Part shown: positions 5,331 to 26,634 of the stretch, piece after piece
Position numbering within the stretch: the first letter of the stretch is position 1
Layout: the number at the start of each line of letters is the position of its first letter
The notes under the pieces: model-generated
Told to the model about the DNA's origin: nothing
The model's input: only the letters and a program-made list of their open reading frames with translations
Database searches by the model: none
Sequence record: MT150133.1
Reading direction: 5' to 3' (one strand)
Source of the DNA: Enterobacteria phage vB_EcoM_IME540
Length of the DNA: 64,000 nt
Translations under genes and position numbers: made by a program

Positions 5331-5863
5331 TTATTCACCTTATTTTCAATATATTCATTCAGACGTTTTAATTCTACCATATCGACGTTAAGCAAGTTAT
5401 TATGGCCGTCGTGATTTAAGATTTTAAACACGTTTTCAAAACATGTTTCATATTGCCGGATAGTTAGGTTGAACTCATCTTTGGTTAATTTAATAAGGTC
5501 ATCTTCAAAGTCTTTATCCAGTGGATTACGGGTTAAAATAACCTCAATAATATTGAATTCAGATTTAAACCCTTTCCAATCTTCCAGTTCTACATAAGGG
5601 TCCATTTCACCACGAAGGAATCCAGAGTAAACAATATTACTAGGATACCCACGGTCTAAGATGTAGACAAAATTAGGGTCTAAAAACTTATACAACGTCT
5701 CGACTAAAGCCTTGTCATTATCAGTCCCTAATGAAATGCATTTGCCATTAATCTTTTTAGGGAAATCAATAAGACGATATTTCTTATCAGATAAAAGTGA
5801 TTCAATTAAAGTAGACTTCCCGGAATTATCCGGGCCGTCGATAACAATGATTTTTGGTTTCAC
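5327..5863 (-). CDS. P-loop kinase, thymidylate-kinase-like
   Basis: Walker A IVIDGPDNSGKST and TMK-like DRGY motif (YILDRGYPSNIVYSG); 178 aa. Confidence 0.65.
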   Translation of the reverse strand: MKPKIIVIDGPDNSGKSTLIESLLSDKKYRLIDFPKKINGKCISLGTDNDKALVETLYKFLDPNFVYILDRGYPSNIVYSGFLRGEMDPYVELEDWKGFKSEFNIIEVILTRNPLDKDFEDDLIKLTKDEFNLTIRQYETCFENVFKILNHDGHNNLLNVDMVELKRLNEYIENKVNK

Positions 5864-6234
5864 GGATGATATGCCTTATAGGTTTCAAGAGTTCCTTCAC
5901 GAACCATTTCTTTAAAGTGGTCAGGACGGATTGCTCGGTCATCGATGATAAAAGTATAACTCGGCTTATGTGTAAGCAGATTGTGATATTTCAATCCAAT
6001 CTTTTCAAGGTTCTTAACTAATGCAGGAACTACTTCAACCAAGATTCGACCTGGGCCGCATGAAGTCATACCACGGGCAGTGAACAAGGTAATCTCGTAC
6101 CCTTCATCATAAAGCTTATTAATCACGGACACCATTTCGGTGTCCGGTTTAAAGTTTTCGTAATCACGGTCATCTTGCCAGTGAGTAATGGTATTATCGA
6201 TATCAAAACACAGATGCATTAAATTTTCTTCCAT
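5860..6234 (-). CDS. HAD-superfamily phosphatase (small, capless)
   Basis: all four HAD motifs: FDIDNT, LFTAR, HKPS, FIIDDR; alternative ATG at 6219 couples to upstream stop (TAATG). Confidence 0.65.
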   Translation of the reverse strand: MEENLMHLCFDIDNTITHWQDDRDYENFKPDTEMVSVINKLYDEGYEITLFTARGMTSCGPGRILVEVVPALVKNLEKIGLKYHNLLTHKPSYTFIIDDRAIRPDHFKEMVREGTLETYKAYHP

Positions 6235-7892
6235 TGTTTGTGGAGTTCGGTAGAACCTGTAGGTTTATATTTTACACCAGTTTCCTGGTCAAGCAAAACC
6301 CACTTATCAGGACAACGAGTGATAATTTGAGCCGTGATAGGGTCGCGAACTTCATCAACGAATTCACCTGTGATAAGCTTACGCTTACGAGGATGCCGCT
6401 TCAGCAGCACACTCAGTTGATATAGCCCATTGTAATAAGCGCCCAGAGCTTTCAGAGGGTTATTTTTAAAGTAACCTGCCAATGCCATCCAGATAACAGC
6501 AATCCAGAGCTTGTGCTTAAATGTACACATCGGAATATCATCTAAAGGCATAACCTTTTCAATATCAACGAATACACGAGTTCCGTTACGAGTTAAGCCA
6601 CCCCATAGAGGGTCAGAGTTAAATTTGTCATAACCATCGATAGAATAAAGCACCTTAGCTTCATCATAAATCGCAGGGCCTTTAGAACTATTACCAAAAT
6701 AACCACGTGGGTCGATGATTTTAATATTACCTTCGTCCGACAACATAATATTACTGTAGTGCGGGTCGCCATGAATAAGTTGGTACGGTTCTTTATGTTC
6801 AGACAGAATTTCTAAGGCGTGACGAAGAAGTTTTTCTGGGTCGCCTACCTTGAAGTCGTTAACATGGGTAATACCCTGTGGAGCAAAGCCTTCAATCAAT
6901 CCGGCAATAGAAGCATTACGAATAAGGACCTTGTCCAATACTTCTTTCTTAACATCAGAATACCATTGCTCATCGGATGGATTATCGATAGTTCCACCGA
7001 ATGAACGTAATGCACTAATGACCTTATAAACCATGAGGACTTTAGTTTCTTTAGACATAAACCGATAGGCGTCTGCCATGGTGCGACCAAAGATACGTTC
7101 CATTTTAATGAATTCACCTGGAGCAAAGTCTACAATGCTAGGAACGAATTCAGAATCAATAGAATTGTACCAATTGATTTCTTTAGATTGGATTTCTTTA
7201 CCTAATTCGTTTGTAGGTACTTTAATAGCTAGATTCTCAGTGAACTCTAATTTATTAAATTCACGGTTAATTTCAGAATCTTCATGGGCCTTAGCCAGTT
7301 TCAGTTTGTCACCAACATCAACTACAAAGTCTAACTTACGTTCAGTCAAATGGACCATTGAATCCAGGTTGTCAGCAAGGTCTTCACCATAATTAGAACG
7401 GTCGAAACCTGTCCAATTAGCCACCTGATACAAGCCAACTACGCCACCACCGGTACCAATTTCACGCAAGTACGGTTCTTCAAATGTAAAACGACAGTCA
7501 GTCCCATAGGTATAACAGTAGTCGTTATCCCACTCAACTTTATGACCTTCAGGAATAATATCACACCAGTTAAACAAGACATTGTGCCCAATGATATCTT
7601 CGGCAATGCAATCGATAGCATGAGCCGAACCATTGGCAACATCAACGTTACGAATAGTGAATTTAGGCTTATCACTATTAATCATGTTAATGGATTTAAT
7701 ATAGCCTTTAACGAGGTCGTTAAATTTGCTGTGAATAACCAGAATAATTTCATCTGATTGATTACTATACAAATCATACAAATGTTTTAATACAGTATGT
7801 TGTTTGTAGTTAACCAGTACCTTCGGGATTTCGTTGGTAATTGGATACAACCGTGAGCCAAGACCCGCGCCTAAAATAACAACCTTTTTCAT
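6219..7892 (-). CDS. bifunctional nucleotidyltransferase (N-terminal) / APH-ChoK-like kinase (C-terminal)
   Basis: N-terminus VVILGAGLGSRL (sugar-1-P/LicC-type NTase glycine loop); C-terminus LIHGDPHYSNIM...IIDPRGY (Brenner HGDxxxxN kinase motif); start trimmed to MKKVVILG with GAGGAA SD. Confidence 0.7.
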   Translation of the reverse strand: MKKVVILGAGLGSRLYPITNEIPKVLVNYKQHTVLKHLYDLYSNQSDEIILVIHSKFNDLVKGYIKSINMINSDKPKFTIRNVDVANGSAHAIDCIAEDIIGHNVLFNWCDIIPEGHKVEWDNDYCYTYGTDCRFTFEEPYLREIGTGGGVVGLYQVANWTGFDRSNYGEDLADNLDSMVHLTERKLDFVVDVGDKLKLAKAHEDSEINREFNKLEFTENLAIKVPTNELGKEIQSKEINWYNSIDSEFVPSIVDFAPGEFIKMERIFGRTMADAYRFMSKETKVLMVYKVISALRSFGGTIDNPSDEQWYSDVKKEVLDKVLIRNASIAGLIEGFAPQGITHVNDFKVGDPEKLLRHALEILSEHKEPYQLIHGDPHYSNIMLSDEGNIKIIDPRGYFGNSSKGPAIYDEAKVLYSIDGYDKFNSDPLWGGLTRNGTRVFVDIEKVMPLDDIPMCTFKHKLWIAVIWMALAGYFKNNPLKALGAYYNGLYQLSVLLKRHPRKRKLITGEFVDEVRDPITAQIITRCPDKWVLLDQETGVKYKPTGSTELHKQWKKI

Positions 7893-7952
7893 TATCTGTT
7901 CCTCAAGTGAATGTAGGTACATTATACACTATTTTTAATAAATTGGTATTGC

Positions 7953-8453
7953 TTAAATCTTATCTTTACCGATTTCAATACACTGTTCTATTGCCGCCGG
8001 TGCTTTGGTCTTGAGCTTATCGATTTGTTTCTTATAATCACGAGCTTTACCGAAGCTCTCGGTTTCGAGCATTTCGTAATAACGAGCCTCGTGGATGGAA
8101 ATCTGTAGATTGATATGGTTTACGCACATCGCATACAGTTTCTGCTTTTTGTACAAATCATCTTGACGCTTCATTTCTGCCTGGTGTTTGGCTAGTACCG
8201 CTTCACGCTTGGACTCTTGTTCACGTTGGAATTCGATTTCTTGTTGAGCATATTTTGCACAGTTATTACCGCATTGATTATTAGCTCGGGTGTACACAAG
8301 TCCAGAACCTGCACGGAATTTCATTTCGCCATCGAATTGTTTCTGTTCAGCTGCGATACGAGCTTTACCAACTTCATCGGCCGAAACTGTATCACCATAT
8401 TGGACCGCGCAACCTGATAGGAGCATACTCATTGCGATAATTAACTTTTTCAT
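7953..8453 (-). CDS. lipoprotein (signal peptide + lipobox LLSGC)
   Basis: MKKLIIAMSMLLSGC lipobox; charged coiled-coil-like mature part; adjacent to imm. Confidence 0.65.
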   Translation of the reverse strand: MKKLIIAMSMLLSGCAVQYGDTVSADEVGKARIAAEQKQFDGEMKFRAGSGLVYTRANNQCGNNCAKYAQQEIEFQREQESKREAVLAKHQAEMKRQDDLYKKQKLYAMCVNHINLQISIHEARYYEMLETESFGKARDYKKQIDKLKTKAPAAIEQCIEIGKDKI

Positions 8454-8460
8454 AATATCC

Positions 8461-8598
8461 TCAATTAAAACAGTTATACTTAATTTGTGCTATAAGAATA
8501 ATCCATCCAATGATGAGTGTCGGAATCATTGGGGGAATTGCCACTGCCCAATAAATGGTAAAGGCAGTCATTATAAGAAATAAAATAATTATTTTCAT
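8461..8598 (-). CDS. small hydrophobic membrane protein (45 aa, below ORF-track cutoff)
   Basis: ATGA overlap with imm stop at 8595-8598; MKIIILFLIMTAFTIYWAVAIPPMIPTLIIGWIILIAQ is almost entirely hydrophobic. Confidence 0.4.
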   Translation of the reverse strand: MKIIILFLIMTAFTIYWAVAIPPMIPTLIIGWIILIAQIKYNCFN

Positions 8599-8831
8599 TG
8601 CTTAACAATAATGATTTGTGCGTTTGATTTACGTTCAGCGACGATAGCCCAGATTAAAGCCACTACCCAACCAATCATCGTCCAGCCTAACAGGAGATTA
8701 AGGAAGAAAATTCCGACATTACTACGAGTGCCTCGCAGAAGAGCCAGAATCCATGGTAAAAAGTAACCGATGAACATAATAACCAGAGAACCGAATCCTA
8801 AAACACCAGCACTAACGATTAAAGCTTCCAT
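8595..8831 (-). CDS. imm: superinfection immunity protein Imm-like (two TM helices)
   Basis: 78 aa membrane protein with GWVVALIWA-type motif; syntenic with T4 imm beside gene 43. Confidence 0.6.
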   Translation of the reverse strand: MEALIVSAGVLGFGSLVIMFIGYFLPWILALLRGTRSNVGIFFLNLLLGWTMIGWVVALIWAIVAERKSNAQIIIVKQ

Positions 8832-8849
8832 TGTAATTTCCTCATGTAG

Positions 8850-8892
8850 TTGATAGGAAGGATACTACCACGTTCCTTGTGGTATGTAAACA
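8850..8892 (-). promoter_or_regulatory. early promoter-like element upstream of imm (degenerate copy)
   Basis: rc GTTTAC-N17-TAGTAT with TG two bases upstream of -10. Confidence 0.4.
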
Positions 8893-8893
8893 C

Positions 8894-11605
8894 TTAAAAG
8901 TCGAACATATCAAATAATGTTGCTTTTTTCTCGTAGTCGATTTTAGCAGACTCAGTAAAACCGGTCAGAGGTTTGATAAAGGTCTTTTGGAACAGTACGT
9001 TGTAGTCCATCCAACGGAGGACTTGGTCACGAATCTGAACCGGAAGTTCAATACCTGACGGCCATGCCATACAAGCTTCACCAAACGGGTTGCCTTCTTT
9101 AAGTGGCAGTACATATACCTTTTCACCATCAACGATACGAGGCATAGTCAAATCACCTGCAGAAGCACGCATGTAAGCTAAGCAACCTTTGATGTGGTAT
9201 GGACATTTAGAACCCGGGAATCCACCTTCATTATATTTCTCGATGTTGTTAGCACTGGATACTGCTGCAATGCTTACATAATCGAGTTCGTTAAATTCCT
9301 TATTAAACTGTTTGAAATATTCTTGCAAAGATGCCTCGCCTTCCTGAAGCATACGACGGATACATTCCTTCAGAGCTTTCTGAACTGCTTTAGGTGTACT
9401 TGATTTCTGAGTTTCGAGACCCATGATTTTCAAGTGTGGTTCAGCATAACGAGTACCTTCCATGTCCCAAACGTTAAGTGCATAACGTTTCTTGCCTGTC
9501 CAGAATCCACCAAGGCCTTTAGAACCAAGTGGAGGACCTGCGATAGCTTCTCGGTCCATGAACATCAAGTGTTGTTTGTTGTTCATGTATTCGCACATCT
9601 CACGGAAGCCTGCATCAATAGCTGGTTCCATACGTTCACGTGCAAATTTATCTAAGAAGTCTACCCAGTGGTTAGTATCACGGAATTTATCTTCGCCTAC
9701 TTTATTGATGATTGCATCTGCCTTAACATAAATGGAGTCAGTATCACCGTAGAGCACGAACTTCTGGTTTTCAGTCTTACACACGCTATTCAGATATTCG
9801 TTAACCTTACGTTCAATCCATTGGAGGGCCATTTGACCAAACAATGTGATTGCAGTTGCGTTCCTGAGGTCATAGTAACGGAACCATACGTTACCAAGTG
9901 CACCATAAAGGGAGTTGATAAGCAACTTACGGTTAATCTGAGCAGTGTTACCTGCAACTTCAGTGAGCTCGGCTTTCTTCAACATTTCTCTTAAAGAAGG
10001 CGCTGACAGTGCTTTAATCTGGGCTTTTATTTCGTCAGAGAAGTCAAAACGATAATCGATATCCAGTGGACTATCAACTGAGAGATTAGGATTTTCCAAT
10101 GCTTCTTTAATTAACTCACCATTACGTTGAGCTGCAAGCATGTAACCTTTATGTTCTTTACGCTGCAAGAATACCTTGGTGATTTCTGTCGGAATCACAC
10201 CTTCACGGTCTTTATAGTACATCATGCCGTTAGGAGAGCAACTGTAGGTGTCGCTAGGACGCTGAGCAGTTCCGGCAATATATTCATGTATCGGTGCGTT
10301 AGCGAATGTCCCTGCGATGGTCTCTGGGCTTATATTCACTTGTCGAATGATACTCGGATACAGAGATGTAAGGTCGAAACTCATTACATATTTGTAAGCG
10401 TTAGGAATCGGTTCCTTAACGAAAGCACCAGGATAAGGTTGGACCACGTGCGAACGAGCTTGTGGAATTACCTTGCCTTGTTCTTTAAGGCTATTAAAGA
10501 TAATAGCGTCCCAAGTCTTAATTGGGCTGAACACCGACTGAATCTGCATCTTGGCATAATAACCCATGTCCAAACTCAGAAGAATGAACTGACGCTTCAT
10601 ATCAATCTGCACTACACGATATACGTCGATAATGTTATAGGAAATATATCGTTGGTGGTTCGTCTCACGTAACTTGGAGATTGGGCCATCATATTTCAAC
10701 TTACCTACTTTCAATTCATATTCAGAAACATAATCCAGAGAATAAGAAGGCTGGTTGGTGAAGCTGAATTTTTTATAGAGGTCGATATAATCCAGAACAG
10801 AGATACCGAACAATGTAATGATTTCACGAGCACCGTACATGTTCTCAATAACTTTAACACGAGTTTTACGATGTGGGCTTAATCGCTTAGCAGTGTTCTC
10901 ACCGAACAGATTTTTCAGACGGTTATAAACGTACGGTACGTCAAACGACTCAACGTTCCATCCAGTCAAAATCACAGGAGTTTTCTGTTGCCAGAAATTC
11001 AAGTACTCAAGCATCATTTCTTCTTCAGAATTAAACGGAAGATAAACGATTTTGTCAATGATTTCCTGTGGAACTTCGTCACCACCTTCGTCTTGGAGTT
11101 TCTCAGCGATTTTAATCGACCACTCTTCAACAGTACCATAAGGCGAAACTAAAAGGTCGAATACATAGAATTTATCGTCAATCGAGTCGTAGTGGGTAAT
11201 GGCATCGATAGGATGTTTAGCCTGAGCTGGTTCAGGGAATCCATCAGGAGATGTTACCTCGATGTCGAAGTTAGCAATACGAATCTTAGAAGAATCATAT
11301 TTGATTTCTTTACGATAGGTATCAGACAAATAGGCTAATTTATAGTCGTCCATACCCAGGGCTTCGAGACCCATATCATCCATACGTTTCATCCATTGGG
11401 ATGCATCACGCATAGAATCGAATTCTTTCTTAACACAACCCTTACCATAGATATCAATGTATTTTACGGCTTGCTCTGGATTAGCATGCATAAACATTGT
11501 AGGCTTGTATGGAACTTCACGACTACGTTCGTTACCATTTTTATCGATGTAACGTTCGAGAATATTATCACCGATTTGTTCGACTGTCAAATAGAATTCT
11601 TGCAT
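8894..11605 (-). CDS. 43: DNA polymerase gp43 (family B)
   Basis: collinear with T4 gp43; ORF-track TTG start trimmed to MQEFYLTVEQIGDN (T4 starts MKEFYISIE) with AAGGA SD. Confidence 0.95.
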   Translation of the reverse strand: MQEFYLTVEQIGDNILERYIDKNGNERSREVPYKPTMFMHANPEQAVKYIDIYGKGCVKKEFDSMRDASQWMKRMDDMGLEALGMDDYKLAYLSDTYRKEIKYDSSKIRIANFDIEVTSPDGFPEPAQAKHPIDAITHYDSIDDKFYVFDLLVSPYGTVEEWSIKIAEKLQDEGGDEVPQEIIDKIVYLPFNSEEEMMLEYLNFWQQKTPVILTGWNVESFDVPYVYNRLKNLFGENTAKRLSPHRKTRVKVIENMYGAREIITLFGISVLDYIDLYKKFSFTNQPSYSLDYVSEYELKVGKLKYDGPISKLRETNHQRYISYNIIDVYRVVQIDMKRQFILLSLDMGYYAKMQIQSVFSPIKTWDAIIFNSLKEQGKVIPQARSHVVQPYPGAFVKEPIPNAYKYVMSFDLTSLYPSIIRQVNISPETIAGTFANAPIHEYIAGTAQRPSDTYSCSPNGMMYYKDREGVIPTEITKVFLQRKEHKGYMLAAQRNGELIKEALENPNLSVDSPLDIDYRFDFSDEIKAQIKALSAPSLREMLKKAELTEVAGNTAQINRKLLINSLYGALGNVWFRYYDLRNATAITLFGQMALQWIERKVNEYLNSVCKTENQKFVLYGDTDSIYVKADAIINKVGEDKFRDTNHWVDFLDKFARERMEPAIDAGFREMCEYMNNKQHLMFMDREAIAGPPLGSKGLGGFWTGKKRYALNVWDMEGTRYAEPHLKIMGLETQKSSTPKAVQKALKECIRRMLQEGEASLQEYFKQFNKEFNELDYVSIAAVSSANNIEKYNEGGFPGSKCPYHIKGCLAYMRASAGDLTMPRIVDGEKVYVLPLKEGNPFGEACMAWPSGIELPVQIRDQVLRWMDYNVLFQKTFIKPLTGFTESAKIDYEKKATLFDMFDF

Positions 11606-11639
11606 TTCATTTCCTTTATAGACGAGTGATTGTCTTTTG

Positions 11640-11686
11640 TTTGTTGATGAATCATTATACTCCAAAAGGGACCGAAGTCCCTTTGC
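11640..11686 (-). promoter_or_regulatory. UUCG hairpin plus TATAAT upstream of gene 43 (candidate terminator / translational-operator region)
   Basis: minus strand AAAGGGAC-UUCG-GTCCCTTT then TGGAGTATAATGA about 45 nt before the 43 start. Confidence 0.4.
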
Positions 11687-11899
11687 TTAAATTTCTATTG
11701 TCTGACGTTTAATAGTTGAATTACCATCTTCGTCTTTAGTTTTAATCATAGCCTGGAAGACTTGCTGGCCAGGATGTAGTAACTTTTGGAGGTCCTTTTG
11801 AAATTCTATTTGGAGCTCTTCGGAAAGGTCAAAAATCGTTTGAGTTGGAGAAAGTCCGTATACCTCTTTAAGACGTTCACACGTTTCAATTTCAAGAAT
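11687..11899 (-). CDS. hypothetical protein (~70 aa)
   Basis: ORF between regA and 43; start trimmed to an internal ATG to avoid a 65-nt overlap with regA. Confidence 0.4.
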   Translation of the reverse strand: MLEIETCERLKEVYGLSPTQTIFDLSEELQIEFQKDLQKLLHPGQQVFQAMIKTKDEDGNSTIKRQTIEI

Positions 11900-11903
11900 C
11901 ATA

Positions 11904-12266
11904 TTAATTACCAATGGTATACTTAGACAGTAGTTCCCAGTCATTTTTCTGCTTAAAGGAAATGACACGGAAATTATTAGTGATTTCGAACAGCTCAGAG
12001 TCGTCTACTATATCAATCAGTCCCCACTCCTTAAGAAGCTGGGCAATTGAATCACGACGTTGGTAGTCTTCACCATCGATATCAACTTGGCGGCCATCCA
12101 TACGTAACATCTCTTTAAAGTGGACGATATAATATAGCCCTTGCTTTTGCAGAATGTGGCAGGATTGATATAGTTTCTTTTCTTTATTATTAGCGATACC
12201 CATACGAGTTAGGGTCTCTTTCACTTTCAAGAAGTCTTCAGGTTGTTTCAGAGTAATTTCAATCAT
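11904..12266 (-). CDS. regA: translational repressor RegA
   Basis: 120 aa; MIEITLKQPEDFLKVKETLTRMGIANNK... nearly identical to T4 RegA. Confidence 0.95.
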   Translation of the reverse strand: MIEITLKQPEDFLKVKETLTRMGIANNKEKKLYQSCHILQKQGLYYIVHFKEMLRMDGRQVDIDGEDYQRRDSIAQLLKEWGLIDIVDDSELFEITNNFRVISFKQKNDWELLSKYTIGN

Positions 12267-24673: not shown

Positions 24674-24831
24674 TTAAAGTTCCAGAATGAAGCACCAACC
24701 AGAAATAAAGGCCAACAAATCATAGACGTCAGCCACCAACAAAAATCACCGGAATCATCTAATTTAGCTAGGGTCTTAGCATAACCAATACCGATGATAA
24801 GATACAAAACAACCAACATTAATTCAATCAT
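24670..24831 (-). CDS. small membrane protein (53 aa, below ORF-track cutoff)
   Basis: ATGA overlap with the nrdC stop; two hydrophobic segments. Confidence 0.4.
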   Translation of the reverse strand: MIELMLVVLYLIIGIGYAKTLAKLDDSGDFCWWLTSMICWPLFLVGASFWNFK

Positions 24832-25091
24832 TTGAAATAAGCTCGCAGTCGGTCAAAGCCACCAATAGAAGTTCCGTCCGGAGCAAATACCTGAGGCATA
24901 GTCAAACCTACCTGAGATTCGCGACCAAGAGCAGTCAAGAGTTCAGCAATCTTCTCATCATCAAATACACCTTTTTCCGGCATCACGTTAATGAATTCGT
25001 AAGGTTGTTTCTTAACATCAAGCAGACGTTTGGCATTATCACAGAAAACACAACGGTGGATATTTGAATCGTAACCATAAACTTTAAACAT
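24828..25091 (-). CDS. nrdC: thioredoxin/glutaredoxin NrdC
   Basis: 87 aa; MFKVYGYDSNIHRCVFCDNAKRLL... near-identical to T4 NrdC, CVFC active site. Confidence 0.9.
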   Translation of the reverse strand: MFKVYGYDSNIHRCVFCDNAKRLLDVKKQPYEFINVMPEKGVFDDEKIAELLTALGRESQVGLTMPQVFAPDGTSIGGFDRLRAYFK

Positions 25092-25329: not shown

Positions 25330-25627
25330 TTTCGTCTCGCTCAAATCGGTGTTTACAATGACGGCATTTGTAACGAAGATTACTAGTCTGCCAATGGACC
25401 AATTGGACCTGTTCTGTACCGCACTCAGGACAGTTAGGAACATCCTTAGAAGCTTGTTCTCGTCGTGCGACCATAGCCATTACAGCATCCCAATTAACGG
25501 CATCACCATAATCATCACAACCATGAATTTTACCAACCAATTCAACTTCAACATCCTCGGCTTTAATAAATTTCAATAAACCAGTATTAGATGCTGAAGC
25601 AATATCTTCAGCTAAACGTTGTTTCAT
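25292..25627 (-). CDS. zinc-ribbon protein (111 aa)
   Basis: CPECG...CRHC four-Cys motif. Confidence 0.5.
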
Positions 25628-26634
25628 TTCAGCAGCTCCAGAGCCTGTTCAAGACGGTCTAAACGATTGGTAGACTCTTCCCAAAGTTTCTTGGCGGCGG
25701 TATATTGGCCAGTCAGTTTTTTGTTGATAGCAAGGGCGTCTTTATACGCTTTTTCCAAGGCAACGACTTCCGGTAACTTGGATTTAGTAATTGGTGTAGG
25801 GGCCATGATAGGGCTGTTCAAGTCGTTAATCAAGTCTTCTAATGTAGCAGGCTCTTTATCAGTGTTCACAATTTCCTCACATTTTTCTTTGTAAATTTCA
25901 GCATCAGTTTTTGGAACGGTACATTTGATTTCACGGACTGTTACTAAGACCTCATATCCTTTCCAGCCTAAGTGGTGTTTAACTTCTTGGGTCTCATATT
26001 TCTCTACGGTATCCATCAGAGCTAAAGCTTGTTCGATAGTATTCAAGGTATCGTAAGCAATATCTTGATACTTTACAACTTCCGCATCATCTTTAGGTTT
26101 CCTATTAGGTGACCAAATAACAGAAATAATAGCTTTTCCTTTATAACTATTTGTTTTAATCATGCAATTAGCCATCGGGTGAATAGTACGACAATCACCG
26201 GAAACTATAGTTTTAGAGGCCGCTTTGAGAATTAATGCAGAGTTAGCCTTGAATTCGCTAACCCAACGTTGCGGAAATAAACTATTAGGGTCCATACCTT
26301 TAATTTTGATATAACCTTTTATGGTATCACCAAACCATTTGTAGCTAACAACACGGTTGGAACCTGGATATTTCTCTTTACCGAACTCAGAAAGGATGTC
26401 CTTATTGACCAGGCGCGAAAGCAGTCGAGAACCTTTAAATGTTTTAATGATATCATGAATGCACAAACGGCCTGCAATCTTTTCGATTTCAGCTTTGAAA
26501 CAGCGCGATAATGCATCATCAATTTGGTCGACCCATTTATTGATATTAGAAACTATTACCTCGTATGGGGTTAACGGAGGGGTGTTGGTAGTGATATACG
26601 TAGTAAAGGCATTGATGTATTCAGTACGAGTCAT
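25624..26634 (-). CDS. hypothetical protein (~336 aa) with C-terminal coiled coil
   Basis: start trimmed to MTRTEYINAF with GAGGAG SD downstream of the promoter at 26662-26690. Confidence 0.55.
   Translation of the reverse strand: MTRTEYINAFTTYITTNTPPLTPYEVIVSNINKWVDQIDDALSRCFKAEIEKIAGRLCIHDIIKTFKGSRLLSRLVNKDILSEFGKEKYPGSNRVVSYKWFGDTIKGYIKIKGMDPNSLFPQRWVSEFKANSALILKAASKTIVSGDCRTIHPMANCMIKTNSYKGKAIISVIWSPNRKPKDDAEVVKYQDIAYDTLNTIEQALALMDTVEKYETQEVKHHLGWKGYEVLVTVREIKCTVPKTDAEIYKEKCEEIVNTDKEPATLEDLINDLNSPIMAPTPITKSKLPEVVALEKAYKDALAINKKLTGQYTAAKKLWEESTNRLDRLEQALELLK

What the first reader, a model, noticed from the sequence alone, without database searches (positions are those of the whole stretch)
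7953..8831. Lipoprotein + small membrane peptide + Imm-like protein: candidate superinfection-exclusion cluster
Three consecutive envelope-targeted products lie between the modification module and gene 43: a lipobox lipoprotein of 166 aa, a 45-aa hydrophobic peptide missed by the ORF track, and a two-TM Imm-like protein. The lipoprotein is not a T4 feature I recognise.
Basis: partly seen in the sequence, partly recalled or inferred. Interest (0 to 1): 0.45.

Follow-up and report, generated by a model that had tools for sequence, protein, structure and literature searches.

The report
T4 imm, Y02C and imm.1 counterparts
The three small envelope genes are real; they match T4's imm, an unannotated T4 micro-gene and T4's imm.1 lipoprotein gene, but only Imm has a known job (blocking a second phage's DNA entry), and the lipoprotein has a swappable tip that makes it worth testing.

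Summary
On the minus strand lie a 78-aa Imm (8595-8831), a 45-aa membrane micro-protein (8461-8598) and a 166-aa lipobox lipoprotein (7953-8453).

The window is a Dhakavirus, 99.9% identical to GenBank phages. None of the three is new to T-even phages:
- Imm matches PF14373 and keeps R33 and W50, which a T4 preprint reports as needed for function.
- The micro-protein belongs to PHROG 3610 / Pfam Phage_T4_Y02C. T4 encodes it right after imm, unannotated in RefSeq.
It does not match Pfam DUF5481.

A conserved GTTTAC-type early promoter sits 3 nt after the gene 43 stop.

The lipoprotein lies at or near imm (adjacent, or separated only by the micro-gene) in seven lineages. In Mosigvirus the pair moved together to sit beside spackle. 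However, phage EcS1 has the lipoprotein and the micro-protein but no Imm, and one Dhakavirus lacks the micro-gene.

The lipoprotein's C-terminal helical hairpin is a swapped cassette: 35-48% DNA identity inside 92-100% flanks.

No fold or sequence relative has a known function. An exclusion role for the lipoprotein is plausible but untested. The finding is a new member of catalogued families, of moderate interest.

The parts
8862..8891 (-). Sigma-70 / T4-early-type promoter, GTTTACA - 17 nt - TAGTAT. It starts 3 nt after the gene 43 stop codon and is the putative start of the imm / micro-protein / lipoprotein transcript.
   Evidence: Promoter scan. The same GTTTAC(A)...TAnnAT arrangement follows gene 43 in T4, SP18, Melville, PM2, Kc304, Q7622, Ursula and L022. 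GTTTAC is the T4 early -35 consensus (PMC1524935). Promoter activity itself is inferred.
8595..8831 (-). imm: a 78-aa inner-membrane superinfection-immunity protein of the Imm family.
   Evidence: PF14373 E 5e-18, 65.1 bits against a cut-off of 27.9. PHROG 1039 E 3e-32. 44% identical to T4 Imm, with R33 and W50 invariant. 16 synonymous and 0 non-synonymous variants. GAGGAAA ribosome-binding site.
8461..8598 (-). 45-aa membrane micro-protein of the T4 Y02C family. Its start is coupled to the imm stop by an ATGA overlap.
   Evidence: PHROG 3610 E 1.4e-21. Homologues in T4, RB69, SP18, PM2, PEi20, Kc304, Q7622 and EcS1 share the invariant PxMIPT..W..Q..C pattern. The orthologue on contig L023 carries the precomputed Pfam label PF26865 Phage_T4_Y02C.
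7953..8453 (-). 166-aa lipoprotein of the Imm.1-like family (PHROG 1754), predicted to be anchored to the outer membrane and to face the periplasm.
   Evidence: PHROG 1754 E 5.7e-52. Lipobox LSGC, Cys15, Ala at +2. Family invariants G49, G51, Y54, C110 and C158. AF2 model with pLDDT 79.6: helix 27-39, beta-hairpin 42-56, long helical hairpin 62-131/134-162.
8409..8453 (-). Signal peptide and lipobox of the lipoprotein (codons 1-15, MKKLIIAMSMLLSGC).
   Evidence: Direct reading and regular-expression match. Lipobox Cys15 is nearly invariant across the family (at least 90% of sequences) and the lipobox is present in nearly all retrieved members.
7953..8159 (-). Exchangeable C-terminal 'head' cassette of the lipoprotein (about aa 99-166, the disulfide-stapled helical hairpin).
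   Evidence: Against a metagenomic Dhakavirus contig (L021), DNA identity is 92-100% on both sides but 35-48% in this stretch. Protein identity is 94% over aa 16-100 and 26% over aa 101-166. The alternative head has no closer relative in the family set, at most 26%.

Best explanation
What it is (well supported). This is the Dhakavirus version of a gene set that T4 also has: imm.1 (lipoprotein), imm, and the small ORF Y02C. Here the order is imm, Y02C-like micro-gene, imm.1-like lipoprotein. The set lies just downstream of a conserved T4-early-type promoter that directly follows gene 43. No terminator-like site was found before the next gene.

How it works, Imm step (shown elsewhere for T4, inferred here from conserved residues). 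Imm inserts in the inner membrane. It binds the tape-measure protein of a superinfecting T-even phage, so the phage's DNA cannot cross the membrane.

How it works, lipoprotein (inferred).
- It is exported, lipidated at Cys15 and sorted to the inner leaflet of the outer membrane, because residue +2 is not Asp.
- A conserved N-terminal module (helix, beta-hairpin, CGNNC) and a charged helical stalk of about 40 residues hold a Cys110-Cys158-stapled helical hairpin head several nanometres into the periplasm.
- The head is exchanged as a cassette between otherwise near-identical phages, so I take it to be a specificity determinant.
- My best guess is that it acts as a second, periplasmic layer of exclusion or envelope protection alongside Imm and spackle, acting on tail-tip or ejected proteins of an incoming phage.

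Micro-protein (function unknown). It is a dispensable inner-membrane accessory whose translation is coupled to whatever gene lies upstream.

Confidence. Identity with the T4 gene set: about 0.9. Exclusion role of the lipoprotein: about 0.35. The overall figure of 0.45 reflects the combined statement.
For: Identity with the T4 genes.

Early promoter conserved in nine lineages. No terminator-like site between the genes.

Imm mechanism and the importance of R33 and W50: bioRxiv 10.64898/2026.03.06.709160. Both residues are invariant in alignment A5.

The lipoprotein lies at or near imm, in three different orders and at two genomic loci:
- Dhakavirus, Gaprivervirus and the L022 type (imm, micro-gene, lipoprotein; imm and the lipoprotein separated only by the micro-gene).
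- T4 (imm.1, then imm).
- Melville and Ursula (lipoprotein, then imm).
- Mosigvirus LF82-16, where the lipoprotein-imm pair has moved to lie directly beside spackle.

The cassette swap is confined to the head. The Cys pair is invariant over 26 sequences and over 22 sequences including T4 Imm.1 and Melville.

Model architecture.

The family is found only in T-even-like phages, with 18 representatives among 1.8 billion proteins.
Against: There are no functional data for any member of the lipoprotein or micro-protein families.

EcS1 has both the lipoprotein and the micro-protein but no Imm anywhere in its 175,437 bp.

In PM2, PEi20, Q7622, Kc304 and EcS1 the lipoprotein is followed by an arabinose-5-phosphate isomerase, not by imm.

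The locus is a known plastic region between core genes, so adjacency is weak evidence.

Plasmid-borne T4 Imm alone excludes T4, so Imm needs no partner.

T4 Imm.1 shares only about 15% identity with the window protein. Only the first 50-60 residues align with confidence, and Pfam DUF5481 does not hit the window protein.

The fold is a generic helical hairpin with no informative neighbour.
Confidence: 0.45

Rival explanations
1. The lipoprotein and the micro-protein are independent early accessory envelope proteins with no role in exclusion. Possible roles include envelope stabilisation, lysis timing, or countering a host or prophage envelope-based defence. On this view they lie near imm only because the stretch between gene 43 and genes 42/uvsX is a plastic region where small non-essential genes accumulate.
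For: EcS1 keeps both genes without any Imm. Five phages in four genera place an isomerase of the DNA-modification module between the lipoprotein and the micro-gene. RB69 has the micro-gene but no lipoprotein at this locus. vB_EcoM_005, Melville and Ursula lack the micro-gene. Imm alone suffices for exclusion in T4.
Against: The lipoprotein-imm pair stays together after relocation in Mosigvirus and lands next to spackle. The two genes lie at or near each other in seven lineages despite reordering. The cassette-like head exchange suggests recognition of a variable partner, which fits phage-phage or phage-defence conflict better than housekeeping.
Confidence: 0.35
2. The lipoprotein masks the phage's own outer-membrane receptor from the periplasmic side, as T5 Llp does with FhuA. 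This would prevent superinfection and the loss of progeny on cell debris.
For: It is a predicted outer-membrane lipoprotein with conserved cysteines. It sits just downstream of an early-type promoter. The variable head could track receptor type. The precedent is T5 Llp (PMC9586334, listed; the mechanism is from my own knowledge).
Against: There is no sequence or fold similarity to Llp or Cor; the Cor PHROG hit has E 0.014 and covers the signal peptide only. The gene is not linked to tail-fibre or adhesin genes. T4-type Imm.1 is 96-100% identical in about 500 Tequatrovirus genomes, a genus whose members use different receptors (own knowledge). That argues against receptor-specific recognition, at least for that branch.
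Confidence: 0.1
3. The lipoprotein is a lysis component, either an o-spanin-like protein or a lysis-inhibition factor.
For: It is an outer-membrane lipoprotein with a periplasmic helical domain.
Against: EcS1 carries this lipoprotein and also a separately annotated spanin pair (I-spanin plus outer-membrane lipoprotein) at 141198-141823. No i-spanin partner lies next to the window gene. The promoter context is early, not late. At 166 aa with a long helical hairpin, it is unlike the short o-spanins (own knowledge).
Confidence: 0.05

Closest known systems
T4 Imm (immunity to superinfection; Pfam PF14373, PHROG 1039)
   Same: The window protein is 78 aa against 83 aa for T4 Imm. It has two hydrophobic segments and is 44% identical, with R33 and W50 conserved. 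It sits in the same neighbourhood next to gene 43, behind an early-type promoter.
   Different: In the window, imm follows gene 43 directly and precedes the lipoprotein. In T4 the lipoprotein gene imm.1 comes first. Which phages the window protein excludes is untested.
T4 Imm.1 (gene imm.1; Pfam DUF5481; PHROG 1754), function unknown
   Same: It has a lipobox signal peptide, and the first mature residues are similar (AVQYGDTVSADEVGK against VAQGPVVNQSDVGK). The C-terminal Cys pair is invariant. Both belong to the same PHROG and lie at or near imm and gene 43.
   Different: Overall identity is only about 15%. The window protein is 41 residues longer, with the G-S-G-L-x-Y beta-hairpin, the CGNNC motif and a longer helical hairpin. 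Pfam DUF5481 does not match it, and hhalign aligns only the first 50-60 residues.
T4 Y02C / RB69 ORF054c micro-protein (Pfam PF26865 Phage_T4_Y02C; PHROG 3610), function unknown
   Same: It is 45-49 aa, with invariant PxMIPT, W, Q and C residues and a C-terminal KY.CFN. Its start overlaps the stop of the upstream gene.
   Different: The upstream partner differs: imm in T4, Dhakavirus and Gaprivervirus, but arabinose-5-phosphate isomerase in RB69, PM2, PEi20, Kc304 and EcS1. It is absent from vB_EcoM_005, Melville and Ursula.
Lipoprotein superinfection-exclusion factors (T5 Llp, phi80/N15 Cor, Streptococcus phage TP-J34 Ltp)
   Same: These are phage-encoded lipoproteins made to protect the infected or lysogenic cell envelope. 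Ltp is thought to act on the tape-measure protein, the same target as Imm (PMC3952083 is listed; the mechanism is from my own knowledge).
   Different: There is no detectable sequence or fold relationship. This protein is a helical hairpin on a stalk and is not linked to a receptor-binding gene. No phenotype is known.
T4 Spackle (Sp), periplasmic inhibitor of the gp5 tail lysozyme
   Same: It is an early periplasmic exclusion factor. In Mosigvirus its gene lies directly next to the imm.1-like / imm pair.
   Different: It belongs to a different family (PHROG 1586). It is secreted, not lipid-anchored. The window itself has no sp gene.

Membership tests
Imm_superinfect (PF14373) | Pfam model match above the gathering score | tested here: met
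   65.1 bits against a cut-off of 27.9, E 5e-18, residues 23-63.
Imm_superinfect (PF14373) | Small membrane protein with two hydrophobic segments, and conservation of the residues reported as functionally important in T4 Imm (R33, W50) | tested here: met
   Hydropathy analysis. R33 and W50 are invariant in A5. Their importance is reported in bioRxiv 10.64898/2026.03.06.709160.
Imm_superinfect (PF14373) | Confers exclusion of superinfecting T-even phage | not testable with these tools
   This needs a plating or DNA-entry assay.
PHROG 1754 (T4 Imm.1-like lipoproteins) | Full-length match to the family profile | tested here: met
   Window protein: E 5.7e-52, residues 1-163 on profile positions 2-147 of 148. 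Other members: T4 Imm.1 6e-43, Melville 4e-46, SP18 3e-47, LF82-16 4.5e-29.
PHROG 1754 (T4 Imm.1-like lipoproteins) | Lipobox signal peptide and an invariant C-terminal Cys pair | tested here: met
   LSGC with Cys15. C110 and C158 are invariant in 22 and in 26 sequences.
Pfam DUF5481 (PF17578; T4 Imm.1 proper) | Pfam model match | tested here: not met
   T4 Imm.1 scores 239 bits. The window protein gives no hit at E up to 1. It is therefore not filed under DUF5481, only under the wider PHROG.
Phage_T4_Y02C (PF26865) / PHROG 3610 | Profile match and the invariant PxMIPT..W..Q..C pattern | tested here: met
   PHROG 3610 E 1.4e-21; T4 ORF E 1.2e-25. Alignment A4 shows the pattern. The Pfam model did not appear in the local Pfam scan of the window or T4 peptides. 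The label comes from the precomputed hit on the 59%-identical orthologue in L023.
Bacterial lipoprotein (signal peptidase II substrate) | Positive n-region, hydrophobic h-region, lipobox [LVI][ASTVI][GAS]C | tested here: met
   MKK / LIIAMSMLL / LSGC.
Bacterial lipoprotein (signal peptidase II substrate) | Lipid modification and outer-membrane sorting | not testable with these tools
   Only the +2 rule can be applied: Ala in the window, and no Asp at +2 in the family members read directly (T4, LF82-16, Melville and the sequences). Outer-membrane location is an inference.
Llp/Cor-type receptor-masking exclusion lipoproteins | Sequence or fold homology to Llp or Cor | tested here: not met
   The Cor PHROG 1119 hit has E 0.014 and covers residues 1-18 only, the signal peptide. 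There is no structural neighbour.
Llp/Cor-type receptor-masking exclusion lipoproteins | Genetic linkage to the receptor-binding protein gene | tested here: not met
   The neighbours are gene 43, imm and DNA-modification genes.
Two-component spanin (o-spanin) | Adjacent or embedded i-spanin partner; late expression | tested here: not met
   There is no i-spanin neighbour. EcS1 has a separate annotated spanin pair in addition to this lipoprotein. The promoter is of the early type.

The most novel reading that the evidence does not exclude
The Imm.1-like lipoprotein is a previously unrecognised third exclusion factor of T-even phages. It would be an outer-membrane-tethered periplasmic 'stalk and head' whose exchangeable, disulfide-stapled helical head recognises a variable tail-tip or ejected protein of incoming phages. 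It would thereby set which relatives are excluded, and would work with Imm (inner membrane) and spackle (periplasm) as a three-layer, trans-envelope barrier.
Probability: 0.25. Interest if true: 0.65.

Novelty: new member of a known kind. Interest (0 to 1): 0.35.

Why it matters
T4 superinfection exclusion has been attributed to two genes, imm and sp, for about fifty years.

The gene next to imm encodes a conserved lipoprotein that has never been characterised. It occurs in about 780 phage genomes in the collection searched (657 plus 127 records). In Mosigvirus it moved together with imm to lie beside sp. Its tip is exchanged as a cassette between near-identical phages.

If it contributes to exclusion, or sets its specificity, that would add a new layer to a textbook system. 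It would also bear on the design of T-even phage cocktails, where mutual exclusion limits co-infection.

If it does not, the result is still useful housekeeping:
- The 45-aa gene should be annotated, including in T4 RefSeq.
- Labels such as 'capsid and scaffold protein' or 'iduronate sulfatase' on these lipoproteins look unfounded.

Tried and rejected
Searches that gave nothing informative:
- Pfam, NCBIfam and PADLOC scans of the lipoprotein and the peptide gave only sub-threshold noise.
- A profile search against PDB sequences gave nothing below E 0.17.
- Literature searches for imm.1, DUF5481, Y02C and lipoprotein exclusion in T-even phages found no functional study. The only mention of Imm.1 is as a gene that distinguishes the T4 group from the RB69 group.
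- The search for related loci failed with the diverse alignment and gave only 7 loci with the closer one.

Hypotheses considered and set aside:
- That the 45-aa ORF is a chance ORF. Rejected on conservation, profile matches and the substitution pattern.
- An o-spanin identity. Rejected.
- Receptor masking of the Llp type. Judged unlikely.
- A role in the DNA-modification module. Rejected, because T4 and Melville (glucosyl-hmC genes) and SP18 (no modification genes at the locus) also carry the lipoprotein.
- A weak Imm-like hit in EcS1 ORF143. It proved to be a different membrane-protein family, PHROG 2203.
Full report
**Origin of the window**

The 1.4-kb stretch around the finding is 99.9% identical to Salmonella phage vB_SalD_ABTNLS3 and to Escherichia phages vB_EcoM_FB and LHE83. 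It is 95-99% identical to about 40 further JS98/QL01-like genomes of the genus Dhakavirus (Straboviridae, Tevenvirinae). In that sense the sequence is already public. The question is what the three genes are.

**Checking the observation**

On the minus strand, directly downstream of gene 43 (DNA polymerase, ending at 8894), lie three ORFs:
- 8595-8831, 78 aa.
- 8461-8598, 45 aa.
- 7953-8453, 166 aa.

Details of each:
- The 78-aa protein matches Pfam Imm_superinfect, scoring 65.1 bits against a cut-off of 27.9, and PHROG 1039. It has two hydrophobic segments and a GAGGAAA ribosome-binding site.
- The 45-aa ORF starts with an ATG that overlaps the imm stop codon (ATGA). It is hydrophobic throughout.
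- The 166-aa ORF begins MKKLIIAMSMLLSGC, a standard lipoprotein signal with lipobox LSGC. Ala follows the Cys, and a GAGGA ribosome-binding site lies upstream. It is the only credible lipobox ORF in the 64-kb window.

Downstream lies a 557-aa nucleotidyltransferase/kinase and other RB69-type DNA-modification genes.

**The 45-aa ORF is a gene**

- It matches PHROG 3610 at E 1.4e-21.
- Homologues of 46-49 aa lie at the corresponding place in T4, RB69, SP18 and VR25 (Gaprivervirus), PM2, PEi20, Q7622, Kc304, EcS1 and a metagenomic relative.
- In their alignment M1, Y16, P22, M24-I25-P26-T27, W32, Q38 and C43 are invariant.
- Within Dhakavirus the ORF shows 7 synonymous and 4 non-synonymous variants.
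- The orthologue on contig L023 carries the precomputed Pfam label PF26865 Phage_T4_Y02C.
- T4 encodes it at NC_000866 26227-26376, overlapping the imm stop, but RefSeq does not annotate it. The RB69 annotators noted the similarity to the 'T4 42-imm intercistronic region'.
- JS98 annotates a 36-aa version from an internal Met, and several Dhakavirus records omit it.
- In every genome examined its start overlaps the stop of the upstream gene, whatever that gene is. The upstream gene is imm in T4, Dhakavirus and Gaprivervirus, and an arabinose-5-phosphate isomerase in RB69, PM2, PEi20, Q7622, Kc304 and EcS1.
- It is precisely absent from Dhakavirus vB_EcoM_005 and was not found in Melville or Ursula. 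It is therefore dispensable.

**The lipoprotein is a T4 feature after all**

A tblastn search with the window protein finds 127 phage records, none of them T4 or RB69. They comprise:
- Dhakavirus.
- Gaprivervirus, at about 50% identity.
- Mosugukvirus, Kanagawavirus, Winklervirus, Kagamiyamavirus and Gelderlandvirus, at 25-35%.

However, T4 gene imm.1, which lies between gene 43 and imm, encodes MKIAILVIALGLAGCVAQGPVVNQSDVGK... This has a lipobox, and the first mature residues resemble the window's CAVQYGDTVSADEVGK.

Evidence for a relationship:
- Both proteins match PHROG 1754 over their full lengths: window E 5.7e-52 and T4 Imm.1 E 6e-43. So do Melville, SP18 and a Mosigvirus protein.
- A profile of 26 window-type sequences, with no T4 sequence in it, aligns to T4 Imm.1 with 96% probability and E 2e-9. 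The alignment covers only the first 50-60 residues (a weaker result with a shallower profile; hmmsearch E 1.2e-6).
- In the joint alignment the two C-terminal cysteines (C110 and C158 in the window protein) are the only invariant columns; the lipobox Cys15 is nearly invariant (at least 90%).

Evidence for distance:
- T4 Imm.1 defines Pfam DUF5481, scoring 239 bits, and that model does not hit the window protein.
- Overall identity is about 15%.

I therefore call the window protein a distant homologue and positional counterpart of Imm.1. It is a member of PHROG 1754 but not of DUF5481. The family is small and phage-restricted, with 18 representatives among 1.84 billion clustered proteins. All those I read are lipoproteins or carry signal peptides.

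**Structure of the lipoprotein**

With a 26-sequence alignment, AlphaFold2 gives mean pLDDT 79.6, and above 90 for residues 90-160. The predicted elements are:
- A disordered tether after Cys15.
- A helix at 27-39.
- A beta-hairpin at 42-56, carrying the invariant G49, G51 and Y54.
- The near-invariant Q-C-G-N-N-C motif (C61, C65).
- One helix running from 62 to 131.
- A return helix at 134-162.

Residues 62-102 have no intramolecular partner and are 39% charged. Residues 103-131 and 134-162 form the hairpin. C110 and C158 lie at similar distances from the turn, so a disulfide staple is plausible, but this is an inference because I could not read the model coordinates.

**A swapped head**

Homologues P0004 and P0005 are 94% and 78% identical to the window protein over residues 16-100, but only 26% and 37% identical over residues 101-166.

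P0004 lies on a metagenomic Dhakavirus contig (L021) with the same gene order. Compared with the window in 60-nt bins, DNA identity is:
- 92-100% through gene 43, imm, the micro-gene and the first 98 codons of the lipoprotein.
- 35-48% from 8159 down to the stop at 7953.
- 95-98% again within the next gene.

The replaced piece is exactly the hairpin head. It keeps both cysteines and has no closer relative among the family members I hold, at most 26% identity. This is the signature of a cassette exchange in a recognition module. It is the most interesting thing I found here.

**Transcription**

Three nucleotides after the gene 43 stop lies GTTTACA, then 17 nt, then TAGTAT (8891-8862, minus strand). 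The same arrangement directly follows gene 43 in T4, SP18, Melville, PM2, Kc304, Q7622, Ursula and L022, whatever the first downstream gene is. GTTTAC at -36 to -31 is the T4 early-promoter consensus (PMC1524935).

No terminator-like site lies between imm and the modification genes. I infer that imm, the micro-gene and the lipoprotein form one early transcription unit. This was not measured.

**Is it an exclusion cluster?**

Only Imm has a known function. A 2026 preprint reports that T4 Imm binds the helical-bundle domain of the tape-measure protein gp29, that R33A and W50A weaken exclusion, and that plasmid-borne Imm alone excludes T4 (bioRxiv 10.64898/2026.03.06.709160). Both residues are invariant between the window protein, T4 and four other Imm proteins. 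Within Dhakavirus, imm shows 16 synonymous and no non-synonymous changes.

Gene orders found, as association evidence for the other two genes:

| Lineage | Gene order |
|---|---|
| Dhakavirus, Gaprivervirus, L022 type | 43 - imm - micro-gene - lipoprotein |
| T4 | 43 - imm.1 - imm - micro-gene - 42 |
| Melville, Ursula | 43 - lipoprotein - imm - 42 |
| PM2, PEi20, Q7622, Kc304, EcS1 | 43 - lipoprotein - isomerase - micro-gene - nucleotidyltransferase |
| RB69 | 43 - isomerase - micro-gene (no lipoprotein at this locus) |

Two further observations pull in opposite directions:
- In Mosigvirus LF82-16 an Imm.1-like lipoprotein (PHROG 1754, E 4.5e-29, lipobox LTGC) and imm lie together at a different locus, between dmd and spackle. 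The order is lipoprotein, Imm, Sp. The pair has therefore stayed together after relocation and now sits beside the other known exclusion gene.
- I assembled the complete EcS1 genome from four fetches. It has the lipoprotein and the micro-gene but no Imm homologue: the best hmmsearch E is 0.02, tblastn finds nothing, and the weak hit belongs to PHROG 2203. The lipoprotein therefore does not depend on Imm.

Receptor masking of the Llp type seems unlikely. T4-type Imm.1 is 96-100% identical in about 500 Tequatrovirus genomes, a genus whose members use different receptors (own knowledge). The gene is never next to adhesin genes.

It is not the o-spanin, because EcS1 has a separate annotated spanin pair.

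**Verdict**

The locus is the Dhakavirus arrangement of T4's imm.1 / imm / Y02C set. Imm is an exclusion protein.
- An exclusion role for the lipoprotein is a reasonable hypothesis, which I put at about one in three. It is supported by conserved association with imm and, in Mosigvirus, with sp; by the early promoter context; by periplasmic targeting; and by the swappable head. No experiment bears on it.
- The micro-protein's role is unknown.
- The finding is a new member of catalogued but uncharacterised families. Its interest is moderate, mainly because a simple deletion or expression experiment in T4 or a Dhakavirus could reveal a third exclusion component.

Noticed in passing
L028:3495-4530 (Escherichia phage LF82-16, Mosigvirus): An Imm.1-like lipoprotein, Imm and spackle lie side by side between dmd and the gene 61 region. 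All three are at one locus, away from gene 43.
   Followed up: partly
L024-L027 (Escherichia phage EcS1, LC371242.1, whole genome): This T-even phage of E. coli has no detectable Imm homologue anywhere in its 175,437 bp. It still carries the lipoprotein (25585-26001) and the micro-gene (24816-24959).
   Followed up: yes
L008:4980-5005 (Escherichia phage vB_EcoM_005): The 45-aa gene is precisely absent. The imm stop is followed after 9 nt by the lipoprotein start. About 6 of 51 Dhakavirus records gave no tblastn hit for the peptide.
   Followed up: partly
window 8866-8884 (minus strand): An inverted repeat, TACCAC-AAGGAAC-GTGGTA, fills the spacer of the promoter after gene 43. A similar CCACAAGGAxGTGG element is kept in PM2, PEi20, Kc304 and EcS1. 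Its role is unknown; it could be an RNA end or stability element of the gene 43 transcript, or a regulatory site.
   Followed up: no
L016:2940-3008 and L019:2884-2948 (PEi20, EcS1): In these two phages the GTTTAC -35 element after gene 43 is replaced by ATTTGCTG/ATTTGCTT. This resembles a MotA-box middle promoter (own knowledge) and suggests a switch in promoter class at the same site.
   Followed up: no
window 11665-11684: A stem-loop, GGGAC-UUCG-GUCCC on the coding (minus) strand, lies just upstream of gene 43. It is a C(UUCG)G-type tetraloop hairpin in the regA-43 intergenic region. It was reported as the only terminator-like site in 5500-12000.
   Followed up: no
window 6219-7892 (minus strand): The nucleotidyltransferase and the kinase-like domain form a single 557-aa ORF here and in JS98. 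In RB69 they are two overlapping ORFs, 053c and 052c.
   Followed up: no
GenBank records MT682711.1, MK310184.1, OK254198.1; NC_000866 and NC_054906.1: The window-type lipoprotein is labelled 'capsid and scaffold protein' in three records. T4 and RB18 imm.1 is labelled 'iduronate sulfatase' in RefSeq. Many records call Imm.1 'immunity protein'. Nothing found here supports any of these labels.
   Followed up: no
L003:6228-6377 (T4, NC_000866 26227-26376, minus strand): The T4 reference record does not annotate the conserved 49-aa ORF that overlaps the imm stop (PHROG 3610, E 1.2e-25).
   Followed up: yes
L006:3530-4590 (Shigella phage SP18, Gaprivervirus): This genus has imm, the micro-gene and the lipoprotein followed directly by uvsX. 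There is no gene 42 or sugar-modification gene at this locus.
   Followed up: no
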